The position numbers and the translations under genes are program-made. Of a stretch of 48,544 bases of DNA, positions 26,583 through 47,800 are shown in pieces. Source of the DNA: Silvibacterium sp. (GTDB lineage Bacteria > Acidobacteriota > Terriglobia > Terriglobales > Acidobacteriaceae); assembly GCA_019232935.1 (NCBI GenBank), contig JAFAMZ010000013.1, forward strand, positions 1 to 48,544, read 5' to 3'. Below the pieces are notes generated by a model. It saw only the letters and a program-made list of their open reading frames with translations, searched no databases and was not told the origin of the DNA. Numbering within the stretch: position 1 is the first letter of the stretch; each line of letters opens with the position of its first letter.

Positions 26583-26653
26583 CCGTTCTCAAATCCGCCC
26601 GCGGGTATTCAAGCCCTCTCGCATCGCTAAGTGAAACCACAACAGGGACCCGG

Positions 26654-27427: not shown

Positions 27428-27433
27428 TCCCCT

Positions 27434-29809: not shown

Positions 29810-30691
29810 TCACCGGGCCGCCAGCCGCTTCAATCTTCTCATCGCGCGGTAGCCGCCGCTCTTGATACTGTCAAGCACCGCGGATGTTCCGGGGCGGCGC
29901 GGATGAAGACCGGCTTTGCGCAGGACGTTGTTGATGCGATACGCGTCCGCTTTCGGATCGAAGACGCGTTTGAAGTTCATGCTGAGTGAGACCGATACAG
30001 CAGGGCCGTTCTCAACCCAGTGAGGAAAGATCACCGGATTGCTCACGCCGGTTCCCGGAGACAGCTCAAACCGCCAGGCCTTCTGCTCGAGACTCTCGCG
30101 ATATTTCGGGGCCTTCGTGTCGTCGCCCGACCAGAATTTCTCAAGCTCGATGTCGCTCAGAACCTCCGGATCGTCGCCGTCGAAGATGTGCACCGTTTTC
30201 GAACCCTGGATCTGCAAAAGAAAATTCGCTTCGCCATCGATGTGATAGGGCGTAACCCGCCCCGGCGATGTGATCAGAATGGTCATGACCGGATCGCGGT
30301 AAGTGCGCTTCAGGTCGATGTTGCAAAGGCGGCCGAGCTCATCCATGCAGGCCTGGAGAAAGCTTCGGTACTCGTCATATTCCTGAACGCGCTTCAGCAT
30401 GACCAGAGAATTGGATTCACCAATATTCTCGAGCACCTGGACCAGCGACTTGCCCTCCGGGACCCCCCGCCATTTTTCCCCGGGAGCGGTGCTGCCGGAC
30501 TCGAAGTAGTATCCCCCGGATTTGGCTTCGGCCCGAGCGGCGAGCCTGGAAAGCATCGGCCAGCCGAAAAGCTCAGACTGATGGACCGAGTGGGTCAGCG
30601 GAAAGGGCCGTCGGTCGAACCCGGTCTGAAACGTCTGCTGCGAAGGCAGGTCGCTCGGAAAGTAATGGGGAACAATGGTGACGGCATTCAT
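29810..30691 (-). CDS. JmjC/cupin-like Fe(II)-dependent oxygenase 2 (paralog of 25686-26582)
   Basis: VTPYHIDGEANFLLQIQGSK, LE.FWS, PGTGV..PV.FPHW.ENG, VS.SLS shared with oxygenase 1. Confidence 0.8.
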   Translation of the reverse strand: MNAVTIVPHYFPSDLPSQQTFQTGFDRRPFPLTHSVHQSELFGWPMLSRLAARAEAKSGGYYFESGSTAPGEKWRGVPEGKSLVQVLENIGESNSLVMLKRVQEYDEYRSFLQACMDELGRLCNIDLKRTYRDPVMTILITSPGRVTPYHIDGEANFLLQIQGSKTVHIFDGDDPEVLSDIELEKFWSGDDTKAPKYRESLEQKAWRFELSPGTGVSNPVIFPHWVENGPAVSVSLSMNFKRVFDPKADAYRINNVLRKAGLHPRRPGTSAVLDSIKSGGYRAMRRLKRLAAR

Positions 30692-30898
30692 GAATCTTCC
30701 TTCATTCAGCCAAAGAACAGGCTGCTGCAAAAGAAACTGATCGAGAGATCCGGAGAACCAGAAGAACTAATCCGGGGAACGGAACCAGGTCAAAGGAAGC
30801 GCCTGACCGCAACAATTTGTAACTCTTTCTGCTCTTTGATGGATCGGCGAGCAGAGATATTTGTTTCAGGACAGCATAACGGAGCGGCGAACGCCCAC

Positions 30899-31402: not shown

Positions 31403-32935
31403 ATGGGCGCTAATTTAGGAATTACCTCTGTCTTTGGTCAACAGGCTGCGAAAACCGATCTGCGGCCGACGAGCCTGAGCGGGCTGAGTTCCGCGAAGAG
31501 AGGCTTGGCCACCCAGCCGGTGGTGAACGCAGTCCTGATGATGGCGACCGATGTGTGCGCGGTCATTGCCGCGGTTTACCTTGCATTGCATCTTCATGCA
31601 GGACATGCGGCTGGCAGCTGGTCCGGGCTGCACCGGGCTATTGCCGCCGGGCCGGCGATGCTGGCGCAGCTTGCCTATGTGTTGTGGTTCATCACCACTC
31701 TGCTGGTTCTAGGCTGGCACGATGGGCTTTACGGACGTCTGCAGAGCGACTCGATTCTTCACGAACAGCGCATGACCGTGCAGGCCTGCCTGAACGCCGG
31801 CCTGCTGCTGTGTGGCGCAATGTACATGACCCACGACGCCACGACGCCACGAGCCGTGGTGATTTCGTTGGTGTGCTTCACTACTCCCCTGCTCTGCCTC
31901 CTGCGCGGATTCTGGCGTTACTCGCTGCATCGTGATTTTCAGAAGGGCATCGGCACACGAAACGTTCTTATCCTCGGCACCGGCCACATGAGTGACGCTG
32001 TGCGCAGGCAGATACTGAAGCATCGCCAGCGCCTGGGGCGCATCTTTAAGGGCTTCGTCGAACTTCCCGGAGAAGCAGCTCCCCACGCCGACTCGAAGGA
32101 GGTCCTCGGCAGTCTTTATCAACTCCGTCATCTGGTCCGCCAGCACTTTGTCGACGAGATCATCATTGCCGGCAGTTGCGACACGGCTCAGGTCCTGGAG
32201 CTGGTCGAGATTGCCGCCGATCTGGGAATCGAAGTGCTCGCCATCCCGGGACTGTTTGAGGACATGGCTCCCGACGCGCAGATCTTCTACCTGGGTGACT
32301 TCCCAGTGATGACGATTCATCGGCGCAACGACCGTGCGCTTGCTCTGTTGCTGAAGAGGGCGGTGGACATTGTGCTCTCGTCGATTCTCCTCGCCATGCT
32401 GGCCCCGCTCTTCGTGGCCATCGCCCTGCTAGTAAAAATGACCTCGCCGGGGCCGGCCTTTTATGTTTCCGAACGCATCGGCAAAAAGGGCAGGGTATTC
32501 CGGCTTTGGAAATTCAGGACGATGAAGTTGGGCGCCGACCGCATGAAGGCCGCTCTGGCTTCAGCAAACGAGCGCAATGGCATTCTCTTCAAGATTAAGA
32601 ACGATCCGCGGGTCACTCCCGTGGGCCGGCTGCTGCGGAAATTCAGTCTGGATGAGCTGCCGCAGCTCTTCAATGTGCTGCTGGGCGACATGAGCCTGGT
32701 GGGGCCGCGACCGCCGCTCGCCAATGAGGTGGCGCAGTATGAGGTGAAGCACTATCGCAGGCTCGACGTCCTGCCAGGCCTTACAGGACTTTGGCAGGTG
32801 CGCGCCAGACACGATCCCTCCTTCGATCAGTATGTGGCGTTGGACATCGCTTACGTCGAGAACTGGAATTTCTGGATGGACCTGAAAATCCTGGTCCGGA
32901 CTGCAGAGGTGGTTTTGCGGGGCACAGGCTCCTAG
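31403..32935 (+). CDS. Priming polyprenyl-phosphate sugar phosphotransferase (WcaJ/WbaP family)
   Basis: N-terminal TMs, VLILG.G nucleotide-binding-like domain, KRAVD, KFRTM, DPRVT, LDELPQL.NVL.GDMSLVGPRP, PGLTGLWQV. Confidence 0.93.
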   Translation: MGANLGITSVFGQQAAKTDLRPTSLSGLSSAKRGLATQPVVNAVLMMATDVCAVIAAVYLALHLHAGHAAGSWSGLHRAIAAGPAMLAQLAYVLWFITTLLVLGWHDGLYGRLQSDSILHEQRMTVQACLNAGLLLCGAMYMTHDATTPRAVVISLVCFTTPLLCLLRGFWRYSLHRDFQKGIGTRNVLILGTGHMSDAVRRQILKHRQRLGRIFKGFVELPGEAAPHADSKEVLGSLYQLRHLVRQHFVDEIIIAGSCDTAQVLELVEIAADLGIEVLAIPGLFEDMAPDAQIFYLGDFPVMTIHRRNDRALALLLKRAVDIVLSSILLAMLAPLFVAIALLVKMTSPGPAFYVSERIGKKGRVFRLWKFRTMKLGADRMKAALASANERNGILFKIKNDPRVTPVGRLLRKFSLDELPQLFNVLLGDMSLVGPRPPLANEVAQYEVKHYRRLDVLPGLTGLWQVRARHDPSFDQYVALDIAYVENWNFWMDLKILVRTAEVVLRGTGS

Positions 32936-33088
32936 CAAAGCACGCTGAAAGGCAAAACAAGCCGACTCTTCTTCAGGTCTCCAAATCCGCTGAACGCATC
33001 AAGGGACCCCCAGTATTTAAATCCCCCAACGAATTCAAATCTTTACTCGGCTCGAACCTCGGGGCGGGCTGCTGGGGCAGAAGGGGCA

Positions 33089-34003
33089 ATGCGTATTTTG
33101 TTGACTGGGTCGAACGGGCAATTGGGCTCAGAGTTCCGTACGCTCGACAGGAGCGCGGCAGAAGTCATCTCTACGGGAAGCCGTGAACTGGACCTCACCG
33201 ACGAGCAGGAGATCCGGCATTTTGTGCGTGACGCGAAGCCGTCGGTAATCATCAACACCGCGGCTTTCAGCGATATGGATGCGGCCGAGCGGAACTGGGA
33301 CGCGTGCTTCGCCCTGAACGCCATGGCTCCCGTAGTGCTGGCCGAGGAAGCCCATCGGCTGGACGCGCTTCTCATTCACTACTCCACCGACCAGGTCTTC
33401 GATGGTTCCAAGACGGAGCCGTACCTCGAATGCGATCGCACATCCCCTCTAAACGTTTACGGAGCGTCTAAGCTTGCCGGCGAACAGGGCATCGCATCGA
33501 GTTTTGCGCGAGCGCTTATCCTGCGGCTGGGATGGATCTACAGCGCGCGGGGCGAGAACTTCCTGCGTTCCATCCTGCGGCTCTCCCGATACAGCAACGA
33601 ACTGCATGTGGCCGCCGATCAGATCGGCGCCCCTACATCGACGAAGGCTGTGGCGCGCGCCACCGAGCGGCTGGTGCACATGTATAACGGCTCCCGCAAG
33701 ACCGATTTTCCCACGGGAATCTTCCATCTGACGGCACAAGGCGCCACTACCTGGCATGGGTTCGCCGAGACCATTCTCTCAATGGCGCCTGCGGCGAGGC
33801 GACCGCTCGTCACCCCAACTGAAACGGCAGAAAACGCCTCCTTCGCGAAGAGGCCGAGATATTGCCTCCTCTCCTGCCGCAAATTTGTCGCTACTTTCGG
33901 GTTTGAGCTGTCTCCATGGGAGGAACAGCTCGAAGAAGTCCTGCACGAGGTTCGGGATTTAAATACCTCGTGGGAGCTGATCGGGTGCGACGAAGCTATC
34001 TGA
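33089..34003 (+). CDS. dTDP-4-dehydrorhamnose reductase-like SDR (RmlD/RfbD family)
   Basis: GSNGQLG, HYSTD, YGASKLAGE, DQIGAPT, AKRP motifs. Confidence 0.85.
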   Translation: MRILLTGSNGQLGSEFRTLDRSAAEVISTGSRELDLTDEQEIRHFVRDAKPSVIINTAAFSDMDAAERNWDACFALNAMAPVVLAEEAHRLDALLIHYSTDQVFDGSKTEPYLECDRTSPLNVYGASKLAGEQGIASSFARALILRLGWIYSARGENFLRSILRLSRYSNELHVAADQIGAPTSTKAVARATERLVHMYNGSRKTDFPTGIFHLTAQGATTWHGFAETILSMAPAARRPLVTPTETAENASFAKRPRYCLLSCRKFVATFGFELSPWEEQLEEVLHEVRDLNTSWELIGCDEAI

Positions 34004-34452: not shown

Positions 34453-34655
34453 ACCGTGCCTTTCCGAGGCTGATTATAGGCTCCCACAAAAGTGTTACTT
34501 CCAATTTGCTTTTCGGGAGCAACGTTTTCACGGAAACAGACACTAACAATTGGGGGCCAGCCATTCCCCGAGCGCAATGCTGACTCTTCCGTTTCCGGTT
34601 ACCCGAACCGGCCATTTACTCAATTTTGAATCAGTGTTACCCAGATAAAGTGTCC

Positions 34656-37600
34656 ATGGAGCCCCTGGTGCCGCACCCTTCCCCACTCCCCGAAACTTCT
34701 GATCAGGGCCACACAGAGAGGAAGGCGGCCCCAGAGGAGTTGATACGCCGCCTTCCAGCTGAGCGCCGCTGCTCCCCGGGAGAAGGGCCGGCCTTCACCA
34801 CGCTGGAACTGACCGGGGAACACCGCGACATTCTCGTCCGGGCATCTGCAGAATTGAATGCTTCAATCGACGACTTCCTGCTGGCCGGCTTCGCCGGTCT
34901 GCTTGCCCGGCTGGGGTGGCAGGAGAGAATCGCCATTGTTTGTCATACGCCCGAACCGTGTGTCGCCGCCTTCGTCTGGGAAAACGGTCTCGGCTTCAAG
35001 GCGGCGCTTGCCAAAATACGAATCGAGAAGCTTGCCGGCAATGCGGCGCCTTGCGATGGCGCCGCCTATCAGTTCCTGGGAACCCGGTCCCGCGCCGTGC
35101 CACACGAGGGCGCGGCCCTGAGGCTGACAGCCAAGGAAGAGCAGGGAGTGCTCAGACTTGTCCTGGCCAGCTCGAATGGATGGTGGTCTGAAAGAACGCT
35201 TAACGGCTGGCTAGCATTGTTGCGGAACCTTCTGCTTGCTGGCGCGCAGTCGCCCGACTCTCCCCTCAGCACGCTGTCCCTGCTCGATGAGGCCGAAATT
35301 CTGCGCTTTTACCGCGGGCTGAATAGCACCGAAAGGGAGTATGACAGCCGAGTCACCGTACCAGATCTGATCGCCCGTCAGGCCGAGCGCAATCCCGATG
35401 CGATTGCCGTGAAATTCGGCGCTCGGCAACTGACTTACCGGGAACTCGAACTTCAATCGACCTTACGGGCGCAGCATCTGGTGTCGATCGGTGCCGGTCG
35501 GGACCGCCCCATTGCGATATGCATGGAGCGGTCGGAGCAGCTTCCCGTGGCGCTGCTGGCCATCCTCAAGTCGGGCTCGTGCTACGTGCCGCTCGATCCG
35601 CATCACCCCCGGCAACGGCTCGCGTCAACGCTGGAAGAGTGCAAGCCGGTAGCTGTTCTGTCGGATATGGCCACAGAACCCTCGCTCGGCGAGATGCCCT
35701 CGCCGGTGCTGTGCATGGACCGCGAATGGCCCGGGCATGAGCAGCCGAAGATCGAGTTGCAAGCGCCTTCTCCCGAAAACCTAGCCTACATTATTTACAC
35801 CTCCGGCTCGACCGGGAAGCCCAAGGGTGTGCCTATCCGTCATCGGTCGCTGGTCAATCTCTTCGACCCCGGATCGGGAATGCCGAAAATCGTTCCTGGC
35901 GACCGCGTGCTGGCCATCACCACTATCGCGTTCGATATCGCCACGATGGACATGTTGATGCCGCTCGCTTCGGGCGCAACCCTCATCGTTGCCGATCGGT
36001 TCGCGGCGGGAGATGCTTTCGAACTGACCCGCCTTCTTGAGGAAAATGACGCCACGCTCATGCAGGCGACGCCATGCACCTGGAGACTGCTGGTTAGCTC
36101 CGGATGGAGCGGCAAAGCGAATCTCAGGATGATATCCGGCGGGGAGGCCCTTCCCCGGGACCTGGCCAATCAGCTTCTGCCGTTGGGTAAGGAACTATGG
36201 AATTGCTACGGCCCGACTGAAACCACAATCTATTCGGGGGCCATTCGTGTCGAGGGCGAGAATGGCATTGTGCCGCTGGGGCCTCCAATTGCCAACACCA
36301 CCTTCTATGTCCTGGACGAAGCCGGAAAGCCGTTGCCGCCCGGCTTCCCGGGAGAACTTTGCATCGGCGGGGTGGGGGTAAGCCCGGGTTACCTGGATCG
36401 CCCCGAGTTGACGGCGCGGCGATTCATACCTGATCCATTCTCTTCCGAACCAGGCGCTACCCTCTTTCGCACCGGAGACCTGGTGCGCGCGCTCGATACG
36501 CTCCCATCCGGCTATGAGCTGGAGTTTATGGGCCGGCTCGATCATCAGGTCAAGCTGCGCGGCTACCGCATCGAACTGGCTGAAATCGAGTCGGTCCTGC
36601 GTTCGCACACCTCGATCCAGAATGCAGCCGTTATCCTGCGACAGGACGTTGAGGGCGAGCCCAGACTGGTGGCCTACGTAACTCTCGCTGCCGGGCAGTT
36701 GCTGAAGCCGAAAGAATTAAAGCAGTACGCCGGGCAATACTTGCCGGAGTACATGCTTCCTGCGCGCATCGCGCGCCTGGACGCCCTGCCGCTTACCGGC
36801 AGCGGCAAAATTGATCGTCGGGCCCTTCCGATCCCGGAGACCCTGCCGGGGCAGGAGGAGGAACTGCCGGAAGCCGCGAACGTCGCTCCGGCCACCGAAC
36901 TCGAAGCCAAACTCCTTGAAATCTTCCGTCAGGTTCTGGGCCGGCCGGGCATTGGTGTGACCGACAGCTTCTTCGATTATGGAGGCTATTCGCTGCTCAC
37001 GGCCCGGCTTTTCGTGCGCATTCATCGCCTTCTGGGCAAAAAGCTGCCGATCAGTCTTCTATTTGACGCACCCACCCCGCGCAAACTGGCAGAGGTCCTC
37101 GGCAAAGGTGAGCCGCTGCCGATGCTCGTTCCCATCCGGAAAGAAGGCAGAGGGGCTCCGCTGTTCGTGATCCATTCCTACCTGATCTACGCAGCGCTCT
37201 GCGAAGCCATCGAGGAAGACCGCCCCATCTTCGGCGTGCGCGAGCTTGACGATTCCGGGCCGGCCGTATCGCTCGAAGACCGAGCCGCGCTGTACGCACG
37301 CGAGATCAACCGGGTCTACCCGGACGGGCCGCTGAGTCTGGTGGGCTGGTGCCTCGCCGGATCGCTCACCGTGGAAGTCGCGCGGCAATTGCGTGAGCGG
37401 GGAAGAATCGTGGCTGTGCTCGCGCTGTTCGATTCGGAGTGTCCGGGTTACAAGCTTCGAAGCGAAGATGGAACCAGCCTGCTGAAAGCCAAGCTGGCCA
37501 GCTTCGCAAAATTCCATTCTGAGCGGCTCCGGGGCCTGGATTGGGCAGGACGGCTGCGCTATCTGTCTGCCAGTACATCGCGGCGCTGGAACGATGCGCT

Positions 37601-37982
37601 TGAATCCGTTGGCGTCCATCGCCGCGCGGCAGCTCGATGGCTGGAGCGGAAGCTTACATTCGCCCCCGGAGCCATTCGAGAGCGCCTTGCGCTGCTCGGG
37701 GCCGACGACCTGCGCCCTAGCACGCCACAAACCTATCCCGGAAAAATCATTCTCTTTCGGCCCTCGGACGTAGTGCAGGTTTCGGGATGCGAGCCTTCGC
37801 TCGGCTGGTCCTGCGTCGCCAGAGAAGGAGTGGTGGTCGAGTTCGCCCCGGGGGATCACGAATCCATGTTCCGGAAGCCCCACCTGCCACAGTTCGGCGA
37901 GATGCTTACGCGTGTGCTGCGTGAGGGCGAAGCCGCCTGCTTCCCCGGCGGGACCGCGCATCAGGCAGAGCTGAGCGCCTGA
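34656..37982 (+). CDS. NRPS-like protein: C-domain remnant - A (Gly-like code) - T - TE(Cys)
   Basis: A motifs YTSGSTGKPKG, FDI, NCYGPTE, GEL.IGG, RTGD, KLRGYRIE, GKIDR; T motif FFDYGGYSL; TE GWCLAG, LFDS, PGDH; no HHxxxDG. Confidence 0.92.
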   Translation: MEPLVPHPSPLPETSDQGHTERKAAPEELIRRLPAERRCSPGEGPAFTTLELTGEHRDILVRASAELNASIDDFLLAGFAGLLARLGWQERIAIVCHTPEPCVAAFVWENGLGFKAALAKIRIEKLAGNAAPCDGAAYQFLGTRSRAVPHEGAALRLTAKEEQGVLRLVLASSNGWWSERTLNGWLALLRNLLLAGAQSPDSPLSTLSLLDEAEILRFYRGLNSTEREYDSRVTVPDLIARQAERNPDAIAVKFGARQLTYRELELQSTLRAQHLVSIGAGRDRPIAICMERSEQLPVALLAILKSGSCYVPLDPHHPRQRLASTLEECKPVAVLSDMATEPSLGEMPSPVLCMDREWPGHEQPKIELQAPSPENLAYIIYTSGSTGKPKGVPIRHRSLVNLFDPGSGMPKIVPGDRVLAITTIAFDIATMDMLMPLASGATLIVADRFAAGDAFELTRLLEENDATLMQATPCTWRLLVSSGWSGKANLRMISGGEALPRDLANQLLPLGKELWNCYGPTETTIYSGAIRVEGENGIVPLGPPIANTTFYVLDEAGKPLPPGFPGELCIGGVGVSPGYLDRPELTARRFIPDPFSSEPGATLFRTGDLVRALDTLPSGYELEFMGRLDHQVKLRGYRIELAEIESVLRSHTSIQNAAVILRQDVEGEPRLVAYVTLAAGQLLKPKELKQYAGQYLPEYMLPARIARLDALPLTGSGKIDRRALPIPETLPGQEEELPEAANVAPATELEAKLLEIFRQVLGRPGIGVTDSFFDYGGYSLLTARLFVRIHRLLGKKLPISLLFDAPTPRKLAEVLGKGEPLPMLVPIRKEGRGAPLFVIHSYLIYAALCEAIEEDRPIFGVRELDDSGPAVSLEDRAALYAREINRVYPDGPLSLVGWCLAGSLTVEVARQLRERGRIVAVLALFDSECPGYKLRSEDGTSLLKAKLASFAKFHSERLRGLDWAGRLRYLSASTSRRWNDALESVGVHRRAAARWLERKLTFAPGAIRERLALLGADDLRPSTPQTYPGKIILFRPSDVVQVSGCEPSLGWSCVAREGVVVEFAPGDHESMFRKPHLPQFGEMLTRVLREGEAACFPGGTAHQAELSA

Positions 37983-38007
37983 CGCGGCGCGGAAACGTGA
38001 CGGTCCA

Positions 38008-39462
38008 CTATCCCCGTGGCGCGTCGTTCAGCTGAACGACGGGGCCTTCGATGATCGGCAGTTTCTTCTGCTGATGCGGGCCATCTGAAAGCATCGCACG
38101 CGGCGGCTCAATGTCCATATGGAGAGCACTGGTCGCCGCTTCCCAGGTACTCATGCCTCCCATGACCACCAGCAGCGGCAGGATCATCGAATTATTGAGC
38201 AGGTTGTCGATAGCGGTCATGAGCACGACGGCTACGAACGCATGTCTGAGGTTCATGTCTTCGATATCGGAGCGCGCCATGGGAAACCACACTACGCGCA
38301 CAATGGGAACGATCTGCAGCGCCTCGAGAGCTAAGAGTCCGAAGATTCCGTACATGCCAAAGGCCAGCAGCCATAATCCGGAAGGCCGCAGGCCGCTGTT
38401 GCGCCACCAGTCCCACTCACTGGACCCCAGGATGGGCTGCTCCAGGGCCGCGTCCACACTTCGCTCGTCCATTTCAAGCCGCATCATAAGTGAGCCGCGG
38501 CCGGCACTCTTGAGGAACGCAGCCGTCGAGCGCACGACTGGGCTGCGCTTGAGGAGGCTGCGGACAGAAACCGTCTTGGTCAGGCGGACACCAGCGAACA
38601 GAAGAATCCCGAGTACCAGCAGAATGGCGAAGACGCGCGGGAAATTCCGGCGGCTGACAAACACAAATGGAAGAAGTCCAAAAAGAAGCAGGATGCTGCC
38701 GCCAGATTGGCAGAGCAGCGCGGCTGCCACGAGAATCGCTGCTGCCCACCTGGTGGGAATGCCAAGCACGCGGTCGACCGTACGGCGCATCCAGAGCCAG
38801 ACAGCGATAAGGGCCGAAGTACACATCCAGATGCCAAGCTGCGTGCCCGTCTCGAGCAGTCCGATCGGCCTATATCCGATATAGCGATGCACCCTGACCC
38901 AGCGGTATGGCTGGTATCCGTAGAGATGTGCGTAAATCTGCGGCCCCGCCGCCGCCTCAAACAGACAGACGGGCAGGTAAAGCAGGCCCGCTATGACGAA
39001 CGCCCTGGCTGCGAGCCGCAGTGAGTCTGTCTCGGAGAAATAAACTCTGCCGATCACCCAGGGGACACCCCATGCCAGAATCTGGTAAAGCTCGCCCGCC
39101 ATGGCGTCGCCGAAGAACTCCGGGTTGGCGATTGCGGAAAGCAACGGAACGACGCACCAGACCAACATCGGCAGATCCCAGAAGGTGAGTCGAAACGCAC
39201 GAAAGCTGCGCCGGTCGAGCACCAGCAGCCATAGCAGTCCCGTGAGCGAGGTGACGGTCGCCTTGGTGAGAAAGTAGCCCGTGTATAAACCATTGCCGAG
39301 AATCCAGTAGGGCGAAGGCTCGCCATAAAAGCGGGCCACCGGCAGGACGGCCCAGCCGCCGAGAAAGTTGAGCAGAATGGCAACACGAATGGGATAGCGC
39401 CGGAAGAAAACCAGCGACACGAATACCCATGCGATGAAAGCCAGCAAAGGGGGGAGAATCAA
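38008..39462 (-). CDS. Multi-TM Wzy polymerase / O-antigen ligase-like membrane protein
   Basis: About 12 TM segments; periplasmic YRPIG loop, SL..R..M loop and PILG motif resembling the WaaL/Wzy_C fold; polysaccharide-locus context. Confidence 0.6.
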   Translation of the reverse strand: MILPPLLAFIAWVFVSLVFFRRYPIRVAILLNFLGGWAVLPVARFYGEPSPYWILGNGLYTGYFLTKATVTSLTGLLWLLVLDRRSFRAFRLTFWDLPMLVWCVVPLLSAIANPEFFGDAMAGELYQILAWGVPWVIGRVYFSETDSLRLAARAFVIAGLLYLPVCLFEAAAGPQIYAHLYGYQPYRWVRVHRYIGYRPIGLLETGTQLGIWMCTSALIAVWLWMRRTVDRVLGIPTRWAAAILVAAALLCQSGGSILLLFGLLPFVFVSRRNFPRVFAILLVLGILLFAGVRLTKTVSVRSLLKRSPVVRSTAAFLKSAGRGSLMMRLEMDERSVDAALEQPILGSSEWDWWRNSGLRPSGLWLLAFGMYGIFGLLALEALQIVPIVRVVWFPMARSDIEDMNLRHAFVAVVLMTAIDNLLNNSMILPLLVVMGGMSTWEAATSALHMDIEPPRAMLSDGPHQQKKLPIIEGPVVQLNDAPRG

Positions 39463-39524
39463 GGGGCTCTCACTTTCGAAAAAATCAGGCCTGATTTAAC
39501 AGCCCCTACTATAAGGGATGGACC

Positions 39525-40058
39525 ATGGTGATGCGAATGGCTGCCGAGTGGCTGACGCCGGTAAAAGCAAGCGGGGTGGCCTCGTATCTCATCGCAGCGG
39601 CGGCATGTGCCGTAACCGCCGCGCGTTCAGCGGATAGACGCGTTGTCCGGCTTGCGGCTGTTCTTGGCGCTCTTGACCTGGTTTTTTTGCTGGACATCGC
39701 ATTCGATTGGCGCTGGAAACTCTATGCGCAGCTCCGCAGCGGAGCAATGACTCATCACTGGTATAACCAACGGTCAGGGCCCCAGATCGCCGCGCTGATC
39801 CTTATCGCTACGGTTCTGATCGCAGCGGCAGTGTGGCTGAGCCGCAGGTTCGCTGCCGTTCGGGGCTCGCCGGTGGCCATATGCGGAGGCGTGGTTTCCA
39901 TAGGTTGCTGGCTAACGGAGGTTGTCTCCTTCCATTCGACCGATGCGATGCTTTATCGCCACGCCGGGCCGCTGCTGATTGTCAGCTTTCTCTGGATGCT
40001 TGGCTGCGGAATGACGGCAGCAGGCATCTGGATCGCCGGAACGGCGGCAGTCACGTAA
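39525..40058 (+). CDS. Hypothetical membrane protein (about 5 TM)
   Basis: Hydrophobic helices separated by WYNQR..PQ and SFH..D motifs; fills the gap between flanking genes. Confidence 0.7.
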   Translation: MVMRMAAEWLTPVKASGVASYLIAAAACAVTAARSADRRVVRLAAVLGALDLVFLLDIAFDWRWKLYAQLRSGAMTHHWYNQRSGPQIAALILIATVLIAAAVWLSRRFAAVRGSPVAICGGVVSIGCWLTEVVSFHSTDAMLYRHAGPLLIVSFLWMLGCGMTAAGIWIAGTAAVT

Positions 40059-40093
40059 TCCATACAGTTACATTTAGAGAGAATTTGTAACAG

Positions 40094-40837
40094 CTATTGG
40101 CGTGTTTTATTGCGCTCCTCCCACTCGAACATGTAAACACGCCACTCCCCGCGCTGAATCGCCAGCGCGCCGATGAATTCGTTGCCGAGATCGAGCGAAA
40201 ACAATGACCACCGTGTGATTTCGCCCGCATCCCATCGGCATTCCAGCAACCCGGAAGCGTCTTCTGCGGAGAGGCTTACGGCGAAGGAGTCGAGCGGAAT
40301 CGACAGGCCTTTCCCGTGGGCCTTGAGGAAAGCCTCCTTGCGGGTCCAGCATCGCAGGAAGGCGCGGAGTTTTCCGGAAGAACCGAAGGCACGGAGAGCA
40401 GCTATCTCTCGCTCGGAAAAATTCGATTGCGCGATAAGTTCCAGATCGCTTATCGGTCGCACCGTTTCCACATCCACGCCCAGATCGGCACTCAGGCAAA
40501 CACCGAGCAGCGTGAGGCCTTCGGTGTGCGAAAGATTGAAACGCACACGCCCCTCAGGCTGCAACGATTCAGGATTCATCAGCTCGGGCTTCCCGAATTC
40601 GTTCACGGCAAAGATAAGATTTTCGGGCGCCAGTCCTGTGTACGCTCCGAGAAGCAGCCGCATGCGCGCGTGATCTGCGATGAAATTTTGGGTCAGATGC
40701 GGAAACCGGAATCGCGCCGCGCGATCGCGTTCCTCAGCCCCAAGCAAGGGCGCATATTGCGCAAGGTCGGCGGCGGGCTCGGGCCGAAGTTTCCAGAGAT
40801 GGACTTCCCCGATGGCCAGCCTTGCCGGTCGAATCAG
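40094..40837 (-). CDS. Sfp-type 4'-phosphopantetheinyl transferase
   Basis: GKP, FNLSHT, GVDVE, WTRKEAFLKA.G.GL; N-terminal EVHLW in frame upstream of TTG 40747; probable CTG start at 40837 with SD AGGAGG. Confidence 0.93.
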   Translation of the reverse strand: MIRPARLAIGEVHLWKLRPEPAADLAQYAPLLGAEERDRAARFRFPHLTQNFIADHARMRLLLGAYTGLAPENLIFAVNEFGKPELMNPESLQPEGRVRFNLSHTEGLTLLGVCLSADLGVDVETVRPISDLELIAQSNFSEREIAALRAFGSSGKLRAFLRCWTRKEAFLKAHGKGLSIPLDSFAVSLSAEDASGLLECRWDAGEITRWSLFSLDLGNEFIGALAIQRGEWRVYMFEWEERNKTRQ

Positions 40838-43800
40838 GCGTTCGCCTCCTGTGCTTTGCCAAGACTCTGGCGCACCAGCTCGCCGACCACGCTGAGGTTC
40901 GGCTCAATAAACATGGTTTCATGGTTCCCGGGAGCCCAGTGCACCTCGACTCCCCGGGCAGCCAGGGCGCCCCAGCCGCAGGCGGGCTCCGCGCCCGGAA
41001 TATATGGCGCATCGGTGGCACGAATGAGCGTAATCCGGCCAGGAAACGGCTGGCCGTTGTAGGAGCGGATAGACTCGAAGGTCTGCAGGCTGACGTTGTG
41101 CATGAATGCAGGCAGCGGCAACCCGAGCGACTGGAAGAGCCGCTGCGCCATGGCCCAGTTCTTCAGGTAGAGCCTCGACCGCATGGAAAGCAGCTTCTGT
41201 TTGATGGCGTTCCACGCGTACCTGGCTTTTCCGCCTGCCGTGAGGGACTGCAACTTTCCGCGATGGAATCGAAATTTCCTGTACAGACGGGCGCGCAGCG
41301 CCATCTCCGGCATATGCTTCTGGGTTTCGGCCAACTCGGCTGCGTAACCCGGACGCCAGGAGTCGAACAGGACGATCATTCCAACTTCTTCGCCGGCGTC
41401 GATAAGCTTCCTCGCCGTCTCGACCGCCAGCGGCCCGGCGGCGCACCATCCGCCGATGTAATACGGACCCTTTGGCTGAAGAGCGCGAATCTCCTTTGCA
41501 TACGACTCAACTCGCTCGGGCATGGTCATCGACTGGTTCAGCTCGCGGAGGCCGTAGAAGGGCTGGTCCTCGCCTATCACCTTCGGGAGCCCGCCGTAAA
41601 GCAGGTACGAGTGAATAAGAAAGAACGGCGGCCTCGACCCTTTGGGCTGCACCGGCACGAGCGGCGAATAGAGCGTTCGCCCGCGAACGATATCCGCCAG
41701 CTGCTCGATCGTGGGAGCGTTAAAAATAGTCGTGATCGGCAGCGAGAGCGAGAAGCTCCGGTTGATGTTGGCGAAGAGCCGCACGATCATCAGAGAATAG
41801 CCGCCCAGCGTAAAGAAATTGGTGCGAATGCCGATGGGCCGGACGCCCAGCACTGTCTCCCAGATGGACACGAGGTTTTTCTCGAGTTCGTCGCGGGGCG
41901 GCACGTAGCTTGAATCTGCCGGTTCTTCCTGGGCGACCGATCCCGGGGCAGGCAGGATGCCGATATCGGCTGACCCGTCGATCCCGCGTGGTATGGCGGT
42001 AACGGCGATAACATCGGCGGAGGCCAGGTGCAGAGGCGCCGAGGACTTGAGGTGCGCGCGGAGGGCTGCAGTTGACGGCTGCTGACCGTTACGGCCTGCC
42101 ACCCAGGCGGCCAGCACGGGCGCCCCGGCCTTATCAGGGACTACGGCGGCTTCGGCATCGGCAACTGATGGCCCGGCCAGTAGCAGATCCTCGAGATCTT
42201 CGAGGTGGAGACGATGGCCGTGCAGCGTGGCGGAACGGTTCAGCCGGCCGGCTAGTTCGAATCCGTTCGCGGGCGAGTAGCGCGCCGTGTAGCCGGGCCG
42301 GAGCTGCTCTAAGTCGCGCTCGACCACGAGCTCGCCGGGAACTCCGAACGGCGCGGGGGAACCGGAGGCATCGAGGATGCGCAGAGTTTCCCCGGGCAGC
42401 GGCGCGAGCACACATCCCGGACGTGCGGCATCAAGCCGAATCGATGAAAATGGGCCGGCGGTCTGCGGCGCCGAGACAAGCAGCCACATCCGGCAGCTTG
42501 ACTTCGTGAGGCGGGCAGCTTCGGCCGAGGACAGCCGGGCTCCACGGCAAATGAGATTCAGCCTGCGGTCGCCCGCCCAGCCATCGAGCATCTGCGACCA
42601 TTCAGCGGGCTTGCCGAATGCGAACGACGCCTGCTCGCGATCGATCACGGAGCGGAAATGCTCCGGCTTTTCCGATCCCGGACAAACGATGGTCGCCCCG
42701 GCAAGCAGCGGCAGCAGCAGGTCCGTCCAGGCATCTGTCTGTGCGAGCGCCGTGCTTTCAGTGGTGCATGATACGAATACGGCGTCGCCCGGCCTGATCC
42801 CGAGCGATTGCGCTGCGGCCGTCATGCTTCTTACCGTGGCAGCCTGGGATAGCGATATGGATTCGTAACTGCCGTCGTTACGACTTACGACCCCCACCCA
42901 TGCAGTCTGGGCAGCGGCTGCTTCGGGTAAACATGAAATAGCTTCGATCGCGTTTCCGGGTGCGCTTCCAAGCTGGGCAAAAGCGGTGATGCCCGTTCCG
43001 CTGGCGGCGAATGCGGTATCGGCGAGGCACAGTGCGGGCATCAATTCGCCCCGGATCTTCCGCCACTCGGCAGCGCTTATATTGGCGGGCACCGGCAGAA
43101 CCGGCGCTCCAAGGCGCAAAGCGGCCAGCAGCGCGGCGATCGAGTCGGCATCAGGCTCGACTCTCACTGCTATGGTCTGCCCGATTCCGATTCCGCGCTG
43201 CTGCATAGCATGAGCGAACGCGATGCTTCGATTGCGGAGTTCTCTCCAGCTTGAGCGCGAGTCTCCCGCGATTAGCGCAGGGGATTCGCCGAGGGCGGCA
43301 GCCTGCGAGTCGAAGATCTGTGCGACAGATGTGCGCGATGGCTGCTCCGGCGCGGCCGCAATCGAGGACTGTGCTGCGGCGGAAATCAGCGCAGACTCCT
43401 CGTGGCCGGAAACAAGTGGCAAAGCCGAAACCGCCAGCGTGTCGTCGCCCAGTACCGCTTCAAGGACGCGCGTGTATTGATCCAGCAGGCGAAGAACGCG
43501 CTCGCGCTCGAAGAGCAGCGTGTTGTATTCGATCTGCAGGCGCGGGCCTTCGTTTCGCTCGACGACGCTCACCAGCATGTCGAAATTCACTCCGCCGCTA
43601 ACTGACGGGCGCGGAATAATGCGCAGCTCGCCGGCAGTCTGGGGCTGCATGAACGCTTTCTGATATACGAAGTAGACCTGCAGGAACTGCGAGGTCGCGC
43701 CGGCCTGGTCGAGCTGGAACTGCTCGGCGAGGCGCGAGAATGGCAGGTCCTGGTGGGCGTAGGCTTTCGTACTCCAATCGATGACGCGGTTCAGTAACTC

Positions 43801-44826
43801 GCGATAGCTGGGATTGCCGCGCACATCGGCCAGAATCACCTGGGGATGCGCGAAACGGCCGACCACGTTTTCCATGCCGGGCTGGGTGCGATTGGCGATC
43901 GTCGAGCCCAGCAGGAATTCCGCTTGGCCGGTGTAGCGTGTGATGAGCCCCTCAAAGGCCGCCAGCAGCACCTGGTGCATGGTGGCGTCGTGCTGGCGGC
44001 AATAAGCCTTGAGGCGCCCGGTCAGCTCCGGTGACAGCAGGCGTCCTTCGATATTGCCGGGCGCACTCTTTTGTGCCGTGCGCGGATGGTCGGTCGGCAG
44101 GTCGATGGCCGGCATCTCTCGCCGGATGTGGTCTTTCCAGAAGGCCAGAGCGGACTGTGCGGCCTCGCTCTCCAGCCACGACTGCTGCCACACCGTGAAG
44201 TCCGCAAACTGGAACGGCAGCTCTGGCAACTCTGGCTCCCGCTTTTCGATGGCGGCGGCATACAGCAGCGCGAAGTCGCGAATGAGGATGCCATTCGACC
44301 AGCCGTCGCAGGCAATGTGATGAACGGTGAAGGCGAGAAAATGTTCGCTGTCTGTAACGTGAATCAGCCGGACAAAAAGCGCGGGGCCATCGCCAAGATC
44401 GAGATGAATGCGACTATGCTCATGAATGAGTTGCTCGGCCCGGTCAACGCGCTCGGCCCTGGGGAGCGTTCGCAGGTCGGAAACCGCAAATTCGCAGGCC
44501 GCCTCTTCCGATATCACCTGGGAAAGCACGCCTTCAACCATGCGGAATGTCGTGCGCAACGCTTCATGGCGCAGCACCAGCGCGCGTACAGCCTGTTCGG
44601 CGGCCTGGTCCTCGATCGGTCCTTCAAGGCGAAAGGCGACCGCCATATTCGAGGCAGTCGAAGCCCCTGCCAGCTGGTCGAGAAGCCAATAGCGGCTCTG
44701 CTCGAGGCCTGCCGGGAAGACATACACGCCGTCCGGGGATGGTTCCACAGACTCCGATCTGTCGAGGACGGGCGCGTCTTCTGGGTTCACGTTCTGTACC
44801 GCACTAACCGAAGAACGATAAGACAT
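40834..44826 (-). CDS. NRPS: C - degenerate A - T - TE(Cys)
   Basis: C motifs RHEALRT, HHIACDG, QFADF..WQ; A-shaped region lacking the P-loop, YGPTE, TGD and catalytic Lys; T FFTLGGYSL; TE GWCAAG, LFDS, PGNH; start 44826 or 44865. Confidence 0.9.
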   Translation of the reverse strand: MSYRSSVSAVQNVNPEDAPVLDRSESVEPSPDGVYVFPAGLEQSRYWLLDQLAGASTASNMAVAFRLEGPIEDQAAEQAVRALVLRHEALRTTFRMVEGVLSQVISEEAACEFAVSDLRTLPRAERVDRAEQLIHEHSRIHLDLGDGPALFVRLIHVTDSEHFLAFTVHHIACDGWSNGILIRDFALLYAAAIEKREPELPELPFQFADFTVWQQSWLESEAAQSALAFWKDHIRREMPAIDLPTDHPRTAQKSAPGNIEGRLLSPELTGRLKAYCRQHDATMHQVLLAAFEGLITRYTGQAEFLLGSTIANRTQPGMENVVGRFAHPQVILADVRGNPSYRELLNRVIDWSTKAYAHQDLPFSRLAEQFQLDQAGATSQFLQVYFVYQKAFMQPQTAGELRIIPRPSVSGGVNFDMLVSVVERNEGPRLQIEYNTLLFERERVLRLLDQYTRVLEAVLGDDTLAVSALPLVSGHEESALISAAAQSSIAAAPEQPSRTSVAQIFDSQAAALGESPALIAGDSRSSWRELRNRSIAFAHAMQQRGIGIGQTIAVRVEPDADSIAALLAALRLGAPVLPVPANISAAEWRKIRGELMPALCLADTAFAASGTGITAFAQLGSAPGNAIEAISCLPEAAAAQTAWVGVVSRNDGSYESISLSQAATVRSMTAAAQSLGIRPGDAVFVSCTTESTALAQTDAWTDLLLPLLAGATIVCPGSEKPEHFRSVIDREQASFAFGKPAEWSQMLDGWAGDRRLNLICRGARLSSAEAARLTKSSCRMWLLVSAPQTAGPFSSIRLDAARPGCVLAPLPGETLRILDASGSPAPFGVPGELVVERDLEQLRPGYTARYSPANGFELAGRLNRSATLHGHRLHLEDLEDLLLAGPSVADAEAAVVPDKAGAPVLAAWVAGRNGQQPSTAALRAHLKSSAPLHLASADVIAVTAIPRGIDGSADIGILPAPGSVAQEEPADSSYVPPRDELEKNLVSIWETVLGVRPIGIRTNFFTLGGYSLMIVRLFANINRSFSLSLPITTIFNAPTIEQLADIVRGRTLYSPLVPVQPKGSRPPFFLIHSYLLYGGLPKVIGEDQPFYGLRELNQSMTMPERVESYAKEIRALQPKGPYYIGGWCAAGPLAVETARKLIDAGEEVGMIVLFDSWRPGYAAELAETQKHMPEMALRARLYRKFRFHRGKLQSLTAGGKARYAWNAIKQKLLSMRSRLYLKNWAMAQRLFQSLGLPLPAFMHNVSLQTFESIRSYNGQPFPGRITLIRATDAPYIPGAEPACGWGALAARGVEVHWAPGNHETMFIEPNLSVVGELVRQSLGKAQEANA

Positions 44827-44888
44827 ACGATTCGAACCAGGCAAACATGCTGCAAGGTACCGCAAGATACTGCAATGAGTCCTGAGTG

Positions 44889-47800
44889 CTATTGCAATAC
44901 TGTCCGCGGCCTGCGATGCAGCGAGCGGGGAACCGGCTGGATCGTCGTTCCGGTCGCGGCAGGTCTGTCATCACTTTTCTCTTCGATCTGTGCGCAGATC
45001 GCCGCGATTGTCTTGTACTGAAAGATATGACGAGCGTTCATCCTGATTCCGGCCTGGTTCGCCAGGGTGTTGATCCGGAAGATCATCAGGGAGTCACCGC
45101 CCAACTCAAAGATACTATCTTCGACGCTAACCTCCTTCAGGTTTAAAACATTGGCCCATATCCGGGCAAGCTTTTCCTCCTGAGGGTTACGAGGATAAAC
45201 AACAGCCCGCTCCCGCATCAGCTGCTCCGGCTGCGGCGCCGGCAGCGCCCGCCGGTCCACCTTGCCGTTGACGGTGCGCGGGAAGCTCTCGACTGCCATG
45301 ACAGCTGCTGGCTGCATATATTCCGGCAATTGCGTCTTCAGCCATGCCCGCAGCTCGGCAATCAGGCTGCCTGTGTCGCCGGCGCCCTCAGGAATGACGT
45401 AGGCGGCCAGCCTTTTATCGCCCGGAGCGTCGTGCTCGGTCTTCCAGTCCGTCCGCACGCAGGCCACCGCTGCGCGGACCAGGGGCGACCGCTCCAGCGC
45501 ATATTCGATCTCGGCGAGCTCAATCCGATATCCGCGAACCTTGACCTGGGTATCGGCGCGCCCCAGGAACTCGACGGTCCCGTCCGCGCGGTACCGCGCC
45601 AGGTCTCCGGTGCGGTAGAGGCGCTCGGTCAGCCCCGGCGCAAAGGTATGGGTGATGAACTTCTCCGCGGTAAGCTCCGGCCCATTCAGGTATCCGAGCG
45701 AGACGCCGTCGCCGCCGGCAAACAGCTCTCCGGTAACTCCCACCGGAACCGGCTGCATCGCGGAGTCCACAATGTAGATGCGAGTATTGCCGATCGGACG
45801 CCCGATGGGGACGGTCCCCGAGGTCAGGCTGTCGAGTGTGATGGTATGGCAGCAAGTGAAGGTCGTGTTTTCAGTCGGGCCGTAGCCATTGATCAGCCGC
45901 AGATGCGGTAGCTCTTCAAGCACGCGGCGAACGTGGGTGACCGACAGCACGTCTCCGCCGGCGAGCAGCTGCCGCAGCGGGCGCAGCGACTCGAGATGGT
46001 TCGTCACCATGAGATGGAAGAGCGCTGCCGTCAGCCATATCGTGGTGATCCCGTTGCCAAGGATGATGGCGCCGATATCTTCCGGCGTGACACGGCCAGC
46101 CGGAGCGACAACCAGGCGGCCGCCGTTAAGCAGCGCGCCCCAGATTTCGAATGTGGCGGCGTCGAACGACAGTGGAGCAAGCTGGAGAAAGACCTCCTCG
46201 GGCCGGAAGCTTGCGAAGCTGTTGTTCTTCACCAGGCGTAGCACCGCCCGATGAGGCACCAGCACGCCCTTGGGGTTGCCCGTCGAGCCGGAGGTGTACA
46301 TGACATAAGCCAGCTCCTCCGGGCCGCCGCTGTGGACAGGATCGGCTCCGGACTCGAGCGCAATGGCGGCCCAGTCGGCGTCAAGGCAGATGATATTTGT
46401 GGCAAGCTTGGGAAGCGTCGTGGCGATCGAGCGAGTGGTGAGCAGCGATTGCGCCTGTGAGTCTTCGACCAGGAAACTGAGCCGCGAGGCCGGGTAGCTG
46501 GCATCCACGGGAACGTAAGCCGCCCCGGCTTTGAGAATCGCCAGCAGCCCCACAATGACTTCGAGCGACCGGTCGAGGCAGATGGCGACCCGCATACCTG
46601 GCTTCACGCCGGACTTTCCGAGAAACTGCGCGAGCTGGTTGGCCTTTTCGTTCAGCTCGGCATAGGTCAGTGACTGCTGGCCGAAGGTCAGAGCAACCGC
46701 ACCCGGAGTGCTGCGCGCCTGCTGCTCGAATACGCGATGGATCGAGCTGGCGCGCGGATATTCGGTTGTGGTCTGGTTCCATTCGTAAAGGAGCTCGTTC
46801 CGCTGTGCGACCGTCAACAGCGAGACCTGCCCGGCTGGTTGCGCAGCATTATCGATAAAGGCCTGCAGGATGGATTCGAGGTGTCCGCGCCAACGCTCGA
46901 TCGTCGGTTCGTCGAAAAGGCCGGTGTTGTAGTCCACGTCCAGCCACAGCTCGTTGCCGCGGTCGATGAAGTTGAAGAAAAGATCCATGTTGACGTGGGT
47001 CTTGCCATTGGCGGCCAGATCGATGTTCAGCCCATCGAACTTCAATCCGGCGCCGACGGTCTCCACGTTGAACTGCACCTCGACCAGCGGCAGCCGCGAG
47101 GAGTCGCGCTCGATCTTCAGCTTGCGCAGCAGCGTGCCATAGGTGTAGCTCTGGTGGTCCTGGGCATCGAGCAGCTTCTTGCGTGCCTGCTTGAAGTACT
47201 CGGCGAGAGTCTGGCTCGCGTCGAAGCGGCTGCGGATGGGCAGGAAGTTCACGCAGTGGCCGACCAGGGAGCCGCCGTTTTCGATCAGCGACTGACCGGC
47301 CATCGGGATGCCGATGACCACGTCATCCTGTTGTGACAGGCGATGAACGAGCTGCGAGAAGCCCGCCAGGAGCGTCGCAAAGAGCGTGCTGCCCTGTTTT
47401 GCGCCCGCCTTTTTGACGGCTTTCAGAAACTCGGGCGGAAAGACAAAGCGCTTTGACGCGCCTGCATTGCCGCGCATCGCCGGACGCGGACGGTCGGTCG
47501 GCAGTTGCAGCACCGAAGGCAGCGTCTTGAATTCGTCGAGCCAGTAAGTCTCGACTTCGCTGTTCTCTTCGGAGGCATGCCGCGCGTGCTCCTCTGCCGC
47601 ATACTTGCTGAAGGCCAGCGGCGCAGCGAGGGAAGCGGCTTTTCCGGCAACTGCGGCGTTGTAGAACTCCGCCAGCTCGGAATAGAGAACGTTGGTCGAC
47701 CATCCGTCGAAGATGACGTGATGTGCAGTAAAGATGAAGACGTGCTCGGCCGGCGCGAGCTTCACCAGGAGCACCCGGAACAGCGGCCCGTGCTGGAGAT

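What the first reader, a model, noticed from the sequence alone, without database searches (positions are those of the whole stretch)
37344..41451. Two thioesterases with a cysteine nucleophile (GWCLAG, GWCAAG)
Seen: both TE nucleophile elbows have Cys (codons 37350-37352 on +, 41443-41445 on -) in place of the GxSxG Ser. Asp (LFDS) and His (PGDH 37857, PGNH 40921) are retained, and the usual HPxGG loop is replaced by HSYL. Established: Cys-type NRPS TEs are rare; ObiF1 (obafluorin beta-lactone) and SulM (sulfazecin beta-lactam) use Cys to keep a reactive thioester for strained-ring closure. Inference: these TEs do transacylation (onto a sugar OH/NH2 or between carriers) or strained-ring formation rather than hydrolysis.
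Basis: partly seen in the sequence, partly recalled or inferred. Interest (0 to 1): 0.78.

Follow-up and report, generated by a model that had tools for sequence, protein, structure and literature searches.

The report
Cysteine thioesterases in a polysaccharide operon
Two chain-release domains of a soil acidobacterium's peptide-polyketide assembly line carry a conserved cysteine where serine is usual; the line sits among the genes for the cell's exopolysaccharide, and the domains likely hand their cargo on to another carrier or a sugar rather than cutting it off with water, but they lack the active-site layout of the known enzymes that close strained antibiotic rings.

Summary
Observation confirmed. 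Both thioesterases (TE1, TE2) have Cys at the nucleophile elbow, Asp 27 residues later and a catalytic His; the triad is invariant in 69 of 69 TE1 and 119 of 119 TE2 orthologues. They are paralogues in one uncharacterised short-loop clade (HSYL, GxCxAG). The strained-ring idea is not supported: the Asp sits after beta6 as in AB3403 and BulbE, not after beta7 as in ObiF1/SulM, and the predicted C-terminal residues are Gly or Val. Cys is not rare in this lineage: about one third of TE-like elbows in 251 genomes of the order, against none in 200 Pseudomonadota genomes. The context is the stronger finding. TE2 ends a PCP-KS-AT-ACP-aminotransferase-C-A(Val)-PCP line placed directly after wza-wzc in 10 of 10 relatives where that side was read. 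The two TE proteins are complementary wrecks of one C-A(Gly)-PCP-TE module: TE1's protein lost its C domain, TE2's lost A-domain activity. Best reading (0.45): non-hydrolytic acyl transfer to a carrier or to the polysaccharide. Rivals: lactam cyclisation 0.27, plain hydrolysis 0.18. Against a strict pairing, five near-complete genomes have TE2 without TE1.

The parts
34626..37982 (+). TE1 protein (P0001): remnant of a C domain's C-terminal half - intact A domain (Gly-like code DIMQIGCIY) - PCP (GGYSL) - Cys thioesterase
34731..35342 (+). Non-catalytic remnant of a condensation domain (no HHxxxDG in 0 of 66 orthologues; weak profile hits to the C-terminal half of C domains)
35373..36809 (+). 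Adenylation domain with core motifs kept (A3 loop 66 of 66, YGPTE 66 of 66, A10 Lys motif 63 of 66); predicted to load Gly
36990..36992 (+). PCP serine of TE1 protein (GGYSL)
37119..37940 (+). TE1 domain: HSYL loop 37173, Cys909 37350-37352, Asp936 37431-37433, His1078 37857-37859
40834..44865 (-). TE2 protein (P0002): intact C domain (HHIACDG) - degenerate A domain - PCP (GGYSL) - Cys thioesterase
41941..43314 (-). Degenerate adenylation domain (A3 loop in 1 of 109 orthologues, YGPTE and A10 Lys motif in 0 of 109); its profile scores highest on Gly-type A domains
40846..41670 (-). TE2 domain: HSYL loop 41613, Cys1141 41445-41443, Asp1168 41364-41362, His1315 40923-40921
44889..48542 (-). C-terminal part of the hybrid PKS-NRPS (end of aminotransferase, C, A with code DAFWLGGTF, PCP), cut by the contig end; full form in relatives is PCP-KS-AT-ACP-aminotransferase-C-A-PCP
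40094..40747 (-). Phosphopantetheinyl transferase, directly after the TE2 gene
38008..39462 (-). O-antigen ligase/Wzy-like membrane protein (weak PF04932 hit, below cut-off)
31403..34003 (+). Priming polyprenyl glycosylphosphotransferase (TIGR03025) and RmlD-like gene, upstream of the TE1 gene on the same strand
23095..30730 (.). 2OG-Fe(II) oxygenase, Wzx flippase, two cupin-like genes, TIGR04325 methyltransferase and an ABC exporter of the same locus

Best explanation
Both domains are intact cysteine-type type I thioesterases at the end of an assembly line encoded in an exopolysaccharide locus, and they likely act as acyl transferases rather than hydrolases. Shown: triad residues, domain order, which domains are dead, operon position. 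Predicted from codes and motifs: the hybrid protein starts from an aminoacyl group on its N-terminal carrier (likely Val loaded in trans by its own A domain), extends it with malonate, turns the new ketone into an amine and adds Val, giving a 3,4-diaminoacyl-Val chain; the TE1 protein loads bare Gly. Inferred: TE1 takes Gly as a Cys thioester and passes it on, most simply to the carrier of the TE2 protein, whose own Gly-type A domain is dead; TE2 then moves the finished chain as a still-activated thioester onto an outside nucleophile, most likely a hydroxyl or amine of the lipid-linked polysaccharide repeat unit.
For: Triad invariant in 119 of 119 and 69 of 69 orthologues down to about 40% identity. 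TE1's protein has no catalytic C domain (0 of 66), so its cargo is predicted to be a single amino acid and hydrolysis would only burn ATP. Complementary decay: the dead A domain scores 180-230 bits on Gly-type and 106-171 bits on other full-length A domains; intact C-A(Gly)-PCP-TE members of the clade exist in G030, G201 and G218. TE1 was never found without TE2 (11 of 11 in 34 genomes of the genus). The line follows wza-wzc in 10 of 10 relatives where that side was read. Related lines in G092, G297 and G221 also end in an A-less module with a Cys TE. Precedents: in BulbE, Cys is needed for alcohol and indole nucleophiles and Cys-to-Ser raises hydrolysis (passages of PMC11792885 and PMC11536411); PCP-to-Cys transfer is energy-neutral (PMC6668435); alpha/beta-hydrolase shuttles load A-less modules (PMC8748450, PMC10956176); MysE is an A-T-TE enzyme that adds an amino acid to a small acceptor (PMC12232313).
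Against: TE1 was not found in five genomes of 97-99% completeness that keep the line and TE2 (G042, G114, G306, G326, G162), two separate events on the TE2 tree; G042 shows only one active NRPS A domain, so the TE2 carrier there has no Gly donor. In 2 of 8 genomes where its surroundings were read, the TE1 gene lies outside the polysaccharide locus (G186, G248). Clade members in G030, G201 and G218 have no polysaccharide genes within the 40 kb read. Cys is common in this order and the tree needs 22 Cys/Ser changes, so it may be inherited without special chemistry. One clade member has Ser (P0248/P0363). Ser enzymes can also shuttle (LgnA). The locus encodes an ABC exporter, which fits a free product. 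No product, polymer structure or expression data were found.
Confidence: 0.45

Rival explanations
1. TE2 is a cyclase: an amine placed by the aminotransferase attacks the Cys thioester and releases a small cyclic lactam (7- to 11-membered, depending on the amine used and on Gly), exported by the ABC transporter and perhaps glycosylated later by a ligase-like protein. TE1's protein would be an optional Gly supplier.
For: Aminotransferase domain in the line; characterised position-I Cys TEs make macrolactams (BulbE; polymyxin TE, 60-fold loss on Cys-to-Ser, passage); ABC exporter and O-antigen-ligase-like genes in the locus. That aminotransferase-made beta-amines close the ring in iturin-type lipopeptides is recalled, not from a call.
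Against: It does not explain why TE1, predicted to hold bare Gly, keeps the same triad and loop; a primary amine does not strictly need Cys (BulbE Cys-to-Ser still cyclises through an amine); it does not explain the fixed position after wza-wzc.
Confidence: 0.27
2. Both are ordinary hydrolytic or editing thioesterases, and Cys is an inherited trait of a lineage rich in Cys TEs. The TE1 protein's A domain would load the other carriers directly in trans.
For: About one third of TE-like elbows in the order are Cys; 22 Cys/Ser changes on the tree; a Ser member inside the clade; a standard type I TE fold; carrier-to-carrier transfer without an active TE is known (PacP, passage).
Against: Cys is kept in 55 of 56 clade rows on the tree and in all 188 orthologues, with a changed loop and elbow; in ObiF1, SulM and BulbE, Ser gives more hydrolysis, so a hydrolase gains little from Cys.
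Confidence: 0.18
3. The TEs close a strained four-membered beta-lactone or beta-lactam as ObiF1 and SulM do.
For: Cys nucleophile; oxygenase-like genes in the locus could make beta-hydroxy-Val; 4 of 9 clade representatives with an active A domain just upstream have a Ser-like code.
Against: Asp at position I, invariant, with a variable residue after beta7; no Gln-Cys-Asn motif; ObiF1 and SulM not retrieved by the clade profile at E up to 1; SulM TE ranks 48th by structure with 9% identity; Gly has no beta-substituent.
Confidence: 0.05
4. The TEs are inactive scaffolds, because the shortened loop and the Ala in the elbow have destroyed the oxyanion hole.
For: The loop that normally helps form the oxyanion hole (own knowledge) is 4 residues shorter, and GxSxG has become GxCxA; other domains of both proteins have decayed.
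Against: All three triad residues are invariant in 188 of 188 orthologues, while the truly dead A domain has lost its motifs; the models keep the fold.
Confidence: 0.05

Closest known systems
AB3403 (A1S_0115 orthologue) termination module, Acinetobacter baumannii, PDB 4ZXH/4ZXI
   Same: Cys nucleophile (GWCFGG), Asp after beta6, fused PCP-TE, Gly-preferring A domain (PMC5376624 passage); best PDB match by profile (E 3e-32) and by structure (Z 24.3, rmsd 6.4, 225 aligned, 21% identity, tied within 1 Z unit with several Ser TEs).
   Different: AB3403 keeps the long HPIGG loop and GxCxGG, is one intact C-A-PCP-TE module, and is not in a polysaccharide locus; its TE reaction is itself uncharacterised.
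BulbE TE (bulbiferamide) and the polymyxin TE
   Same: Type I TEs with catalytic Cys; BulbE has Cys961/Asp988/His1097, the same 27-residue Cys-Asp spacing and Asp after beta6.
ObiF1 TE (obafluorin) and SulM TE (sulfazecin)
   Same: Cys nucleophile in an alpha/beta-hydrolase TE at the end of an NRPS.
   Different: Their Asp follows beta7 and they group with type II TEs; 9% identity to SulM TE; they act on beta-hydroxy or beta-amino residues.
SyrC, CmaE and LgnA aminoacyl shuttles
   Same: A donor A-T protein and an acceptor module without a working A domain. That SyrC and CmaE use Cys is recalled.
   Different: They are stand-alone proteins; here each hydrolase-fold domain is fused behind a PCP, and the acceptor module occurs without the donor in five near-complete genomes.
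MysE (shinorine A-T-TE enzyme)
   Same: A-T-TE layout with one amino acid as cargo, added to a small acceptor.
   Different: Different pathway and acceptor; its TE nucleophile was not checked here.

Membership tests
ObiF1/SulM strained-ring TEs | Cys nucleophile | tested here: met
ObiF1/SulM strained-ring TEs | Catalytic Asp after beta7 (position II), not after beta6 | tested here: not met
   Asp after beta6 invariant (119 of 119, 69 of 69); the acid after beta7 varies (TE2: E 74, D 32, Q 10, other 3; TE1: D 63, E 6); criterion from PMC11298585
ObiF1/SulM strained-ring TEs | Gln-Cys-Asn elbow (SulM) | tested here: not met
   Trp-Cys-Leu and Trp-Cys-Ala
ObiF1/SulM strained-ring TEs | Closer in sequence or fold to ObiF1/SulM than to standard type I TEs | tested here: inconclusive
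   Neither retrieved by the profile at E up to 1; SulM Z 19.1, rank 48, 9% identity; ObiF1 not among the 50 entries shown; no joint tree was possible
ObiF1/SulM strained-ring TEs | C-terminal residue with a beta-hydroxyl or beta-amine | tested here: inconclusive
   Codes predict Gly and Val; hydroxylation of Val cannot be excluded
Position-I Cys type I TEs (AB3403, BulbE) | Cys at the elbow, Asp 27 residues later, His after beta8, fused behind a PCP | tested here: met
Position-I Cys type I TEs (AB3403, BulbE) | Long HPxGG-type loop and GxCxGG elbow as in AB3403 | tested here: not met
   4-residue shorter HSYL loop and GxCxAG
Position-I Cys type I TEs (AB3403, BulbE) | Cys-dependent non-hydrolytic release | not testable with these tools
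   needs an enzyme assay
SyrC/CmaE/LgnA aminoacyl shuttles | Stand-alone alpha/beta hydrolase | tested here: not met
   both are fused to a PCP
SyrC/CmaE/LgnA aminoacyl shuttles | A donor A-T protein and an acceptor module without a working A domain in one cluster | tested here: met
SyrC/CmaE/LgnA aminoacyl shuttles | Donor required wherever the acceptor module occurs | tested here: not met
   TE1 not found in 6 of 17 TE2-bearing genomes of the genus, 4 of them 97-99% complete
SyrC/CmaE/LgnA aminoacyl shuttles | Carrier-to-carrier aminoacyl transfer | not testable with these tools
   needs intact-protein mass spectrometry
TrdC/NcmC Dieckmann cyclases (Cys-Asp-His) | Discrete cyclase acting on a beta-ketoacyl amino acid | tested here: not met
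   fused TEs; the aminotransferase is predicted to remove the ketone; family described in PMC10956176

The most novel reading that the evidence does not exclude
One C-A(Gly)-PCP-TE module was duplicated and decayed into two complementary halves whose cysteine thioesterases work as reversible shuttles: TE1 loads Gly onto its partner, and TE2 grafts a 3,4-diaminoacyl-Val(-Gly) peptide-polyketide onto the exopolysaccharide. That would be an assembly line built to decorate a Wzx/Wzy polysaccharide in abundant soil Acidobacteria.
Probability: 0.25. Interest if true: 0.8.

Novelty: new variant of a known kind. Interest (0 to 1): 0.5.

Why it matters
Cys thioesterases are used as a genome-mining flag for beta-lactones and beta-lactams. 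This clade shows the flag is weak without the position-II Asp: in Terriglobales about a third of TE-like elbows carry Cys. If the transfer reading holds, a fused TE would act as a carrier-to-carrier and carrier-to-sugar transferase, and a common acidobacterial hybrid cluster with no product found in my searches would gain a testable job in making the cell's polysaccharide coat. Named homologues come from described species (Silvibacterium, Paracidobacterium, Acidicapsa), so the test is within reach.

Tried and rejected
Lid charge: the lids are basic (median +12 in TE2, +10 in TE1 orthologues) but so are those of Ser TEs in the same set (+11), so this is no evidence for an anionic or membrane acceptor. 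TE1 as the required loader of the N-terminal carrier: rejected, since the line occurs without TE1. Sequencing error: rejected. ESM Atlas search with homologue P0024 returned only general NRPS clusters. Plasmid searches gave no close relative, all under 60% identity; a Nostoc plasmid region fetched in the hope of seeing MysE had no annotation and was not analysed. No RNA holder was listed for the stretch. Earlier-findings look-ups by sequence and place were empty. Paper searches for an exopolysaccharide-linked hybrid of this type found nothing that describes it (open-access library only, and passages of two Acidobacteria papers). The search for the hybrid-KS motif listed no paper holding it among the 10 shown. 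No complex prediction was run, as enzyme-carrier contacts are poorly scored. Contigs C68 and C98 of the window's assembly hold wzc and the front of the hybrid protein, but C98 overlaps the window's end at only 80% identity over 184 bases, so I do not treat them as the same copy.
Full report
Observation. TE1 ends the 1118-aa ORF 34626-37982 (+); TE2 ends the 1343-aa ORF 40834-44865 (-). Their PCP-TE parts are 36% identical over 352 residues. Contigs from run X2, a different study from the likely source run, cover both Cys codons without a difference. The window is all of contig C211 of a 75% complete genome; named relatives are Acidobacteriaceae.

Conservation. The TE2 search found 343 proteins and listed 120; 119 are orthologues (49-100% identity, including the window's own) and all have Cys, Asp and His; the 120th is a distant 33% hit. 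The TE1 search found 95 proteins; 69 are orthologues (38-100%, including the window's own cluster) and all have the triad; 1 TE2-type and 25 distant hits were set aside. The elbow is GxCxAG or GxCxAA, and the loop after beta3 is 4 residues shorter than in AB3403. AlphaFold2 models give a standard alpha/beta-hydrolase fold with Cys at the strand-helix turn. Geometry was not measured.

Family. A profile of 25 Cys TEs matched AB3403 best in the PDB (E 3e-32) and did not list ObiF1 or SulM at E up to 1, although ObiF1 is in that PDB copy. By structure AB3403 ranks first (Z 24.3, tied within 1 with several Ser TEs) and SulM TE 48th (Z 19.1, 9% identity); Foldseek's top rows are Pks13 and 7CRN. Passages of PMC11298585 and PMC6668435 state that ObiF1 and SulM carry the Asp after beta7, and AB3403 after beta6. 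Here the Asp after beta6 is invariant and the acid after beta7 is not. On a FastTree tree of 186 TE domains, with loop and elbow columns removed, TE1 and TE2 are separate subclades in one 56-row clade (support 96) with 55 Cys and 1 Ser; the whole tree needs 22 Cys/Ser changes. That set came from a Cys-biased profile (104 Cys, 58 Ser, 5 other of 167 domains), and known TEs could not be added.

How rare is Cys? A DNA pattern for the TE elbow gave 56 Cys matches in 46 of 251 genomes of the order, about 5 of which look unrelated by eye, with 0 in the reversed control. The wider pattern gave 163 matches (150 listed) with 15 in the control. So roughly a third of such elbows are Cys. In 200 genomes drawn from the phylum of a Stellaceae genome (Pseudomonadota) there were 0 Cys matches (control 2) against 29 Ser codons among 39 matches, counted by hand and including some esterases. 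The pattern is strict and misses some TEs, and kin are not independent. Cys is thus rare in one phylum sample and common in this order. Passages of PMC11536411 and PMC11792885 add two characterised Cys TEs, BulbE (Asp after beta6) and the polymyxin TE, both macrolactam makers; BulbE Cys-to-Ser loses indole and alcohol nucleophiles, keeps weak amine use and hydrolyses more. I reached BulbE through an earlier finding and a review passage.

Architecture. In G108 the protein upstream of TE2 is a 2809-aa PCP-KS-AT-ACP-aminotransferase-C-A-PCP; the window holds its last 1217 residues. Its KS has NDKD and VQTACSTS, which I recall as marks of KS domains that accept amino acids. Its A code is DAFWLGGTF or DALWLGGTF in all relatives read; I recall this as Val, and PMC12283262 lists the near code DALWIGGTFK among Leu/Ile/Val domains. 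The N-terminal carrier has no A domain of its own. In related lines of G221 and G257 a separate loader carries this same code, which suggests loading in trans. The TE2 protein keeps a strongly conserved C domain and PCP, but its A domain has lost the catalytic motifs and derives from a Gly-type domain. The TE1 protein keeps an active-looking A domain, code DIMQIGCIY (27 of 66; most others close variants), nearest to the Gly code DILQLGMIWK, and only a half-domain remnant of C. Intact C-A(Gly)-PCP-TE members of the clade occur in G030, G201 and G218, beside a P450 in G030 and G201. The two proteins therefore look like complementary remains of one module. This is inference from profiles, not a rooted history.

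Context. The window carries a priming glycosyltransferase, RmlD, Wzx, a ligase-like gene, oxygenase-like genes, an ABC exporter and a PPTase. The line follows wza-wzc on the same strand in 10 of 10 relatives where that side was read (G108, G301, G146, G186, G248, G162, G042, G143, G326, G327; not read for G306 and G114). The PPTase follows TE2 in 12 of 13 genomes including this one. The TE1 gene follows wcaJ-rmlD in 5 of 8, lies elsewhere in the locus in 1 (G146) and outside it in 2 (G186, G248). In 34 genomes of the genus, 17 have TE2 and 11 have TE1, always with TE2; 6 have TE2 alone, 4 of them 97-99% complete, as does G162. G042 shows one active NRPS A domain in the whole-genome search. How the TE2 carrier is loaded there is unexplained; the C domain might pass the chain straight to it, as the A-less C-C-PCP-TE ends of G092, G297 and G221 would also need.

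Mechanism. Shown: residues, domains, gene order, co-occurrence. Predicted: Val start, malonate extension, transamination, Val addition; Gly on the TE1 protein. Inferred: TE1 passes Gly on, since hydrolysing a lone amino acid would be futile, and TE2 moves the chain to an outside nucleophile, with the polysaccharide the most likely acceptor given the operon. I put this at 0.45, lactam cyclisation at 0.27, plain hydrolysis or editing at 0.18, a four-membered ring at 0.05 and inactivity at 0.05. Shuttle and A-T-TE precedents come from passages of PMC8748450, PMC10956176 and PMC12232313; AB3403's Gly preference from PMC5376624 and PMC10510592. I read passages only, no whole texts or supplements; the supplements of PMC11298585 hold a TE tree that may bear on placement. 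Two further papers were opened and not used.

Verdict. The uncharacterised short-loop clade, the split module and the fixed place in a polysaccharide operon make it a new variant of a known kind with a clear test. Interest 0.5.

Noticed in passing
window 36981-36995 and 41791-41805: Both carriers in front of the TEs have the motif GGYSL, with Tyr before the Ser, kept in 66 of 69 and 117 of 120 homologues; the other carriers of the line have GGTSL, GFDSL and GGDSL.
   Followed up: partly
L083-L084 (G221:C16:543108-559006) and L077-L078 (G257:C2:1423987-1441042): Related polysaccharide-linked lines with a CmlA-type beta-hydroxylase before a Val-code loader, then KS-AT-ACP-aminotransferase, ending in a short-loop Cys TE; they could build hydroxy-diamino acids that resemble amino sugars.
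   Followed up: partly
L065-L066 (G030), L075 (G201), L153 (G333:C339): A second context for short-loop Cys TEs: cytochrome P450 next to C-A(Gly)-PCP-TE, with a free carrier in G201 or a Leu-code A domain in G333, and no polysaccharide genes in the stretch read; G333 is a Stellaceae genome.
   Followed up: partly
L137 (G028:C2:8517-11184), L139 (G241:C4:511808-515099), L141 (G093:C1:1738632-1741982): Neighbouring pairs of small TE or PCP-TE proteins, one with Ser and one with Cys, with no C or A domain, near polysaccharide or sugar-nucleotide genes.
   Followed up: no
P0363 / P0248: The only Ser member of the clade; it has an active Val-code A domain and a half C domain, a natural control for the Cys.
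   Followed up: partly
L044:14375-14507 (G301:C1 near 1124400): The hybrid gene is split into two overlapping frames in this assembly, possibly a sequencing error.
   Followed up: no
L089 (G000:C98) against window 48361-48544: The assembly's contigs C68 and C98 hold wzc and the front of the hybrid gene but match the window's end at only 80%, suggesting a co-binned relative or second copy; the last 94 bases of the window had no cover in the two runs laid.
   Followed up: partly
L090 (G000:C48): A second NRPS-PKS cluster in this genome with a thiamine-pyrophosphate enzyme between an NRPS module and a KS.
   Followed up: no
window 39525-40058: A 177-aa membrane-like protein with no Pfam or NCBIfam match, found beside the ligase-like gene in several relatives.
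   Followed up: no
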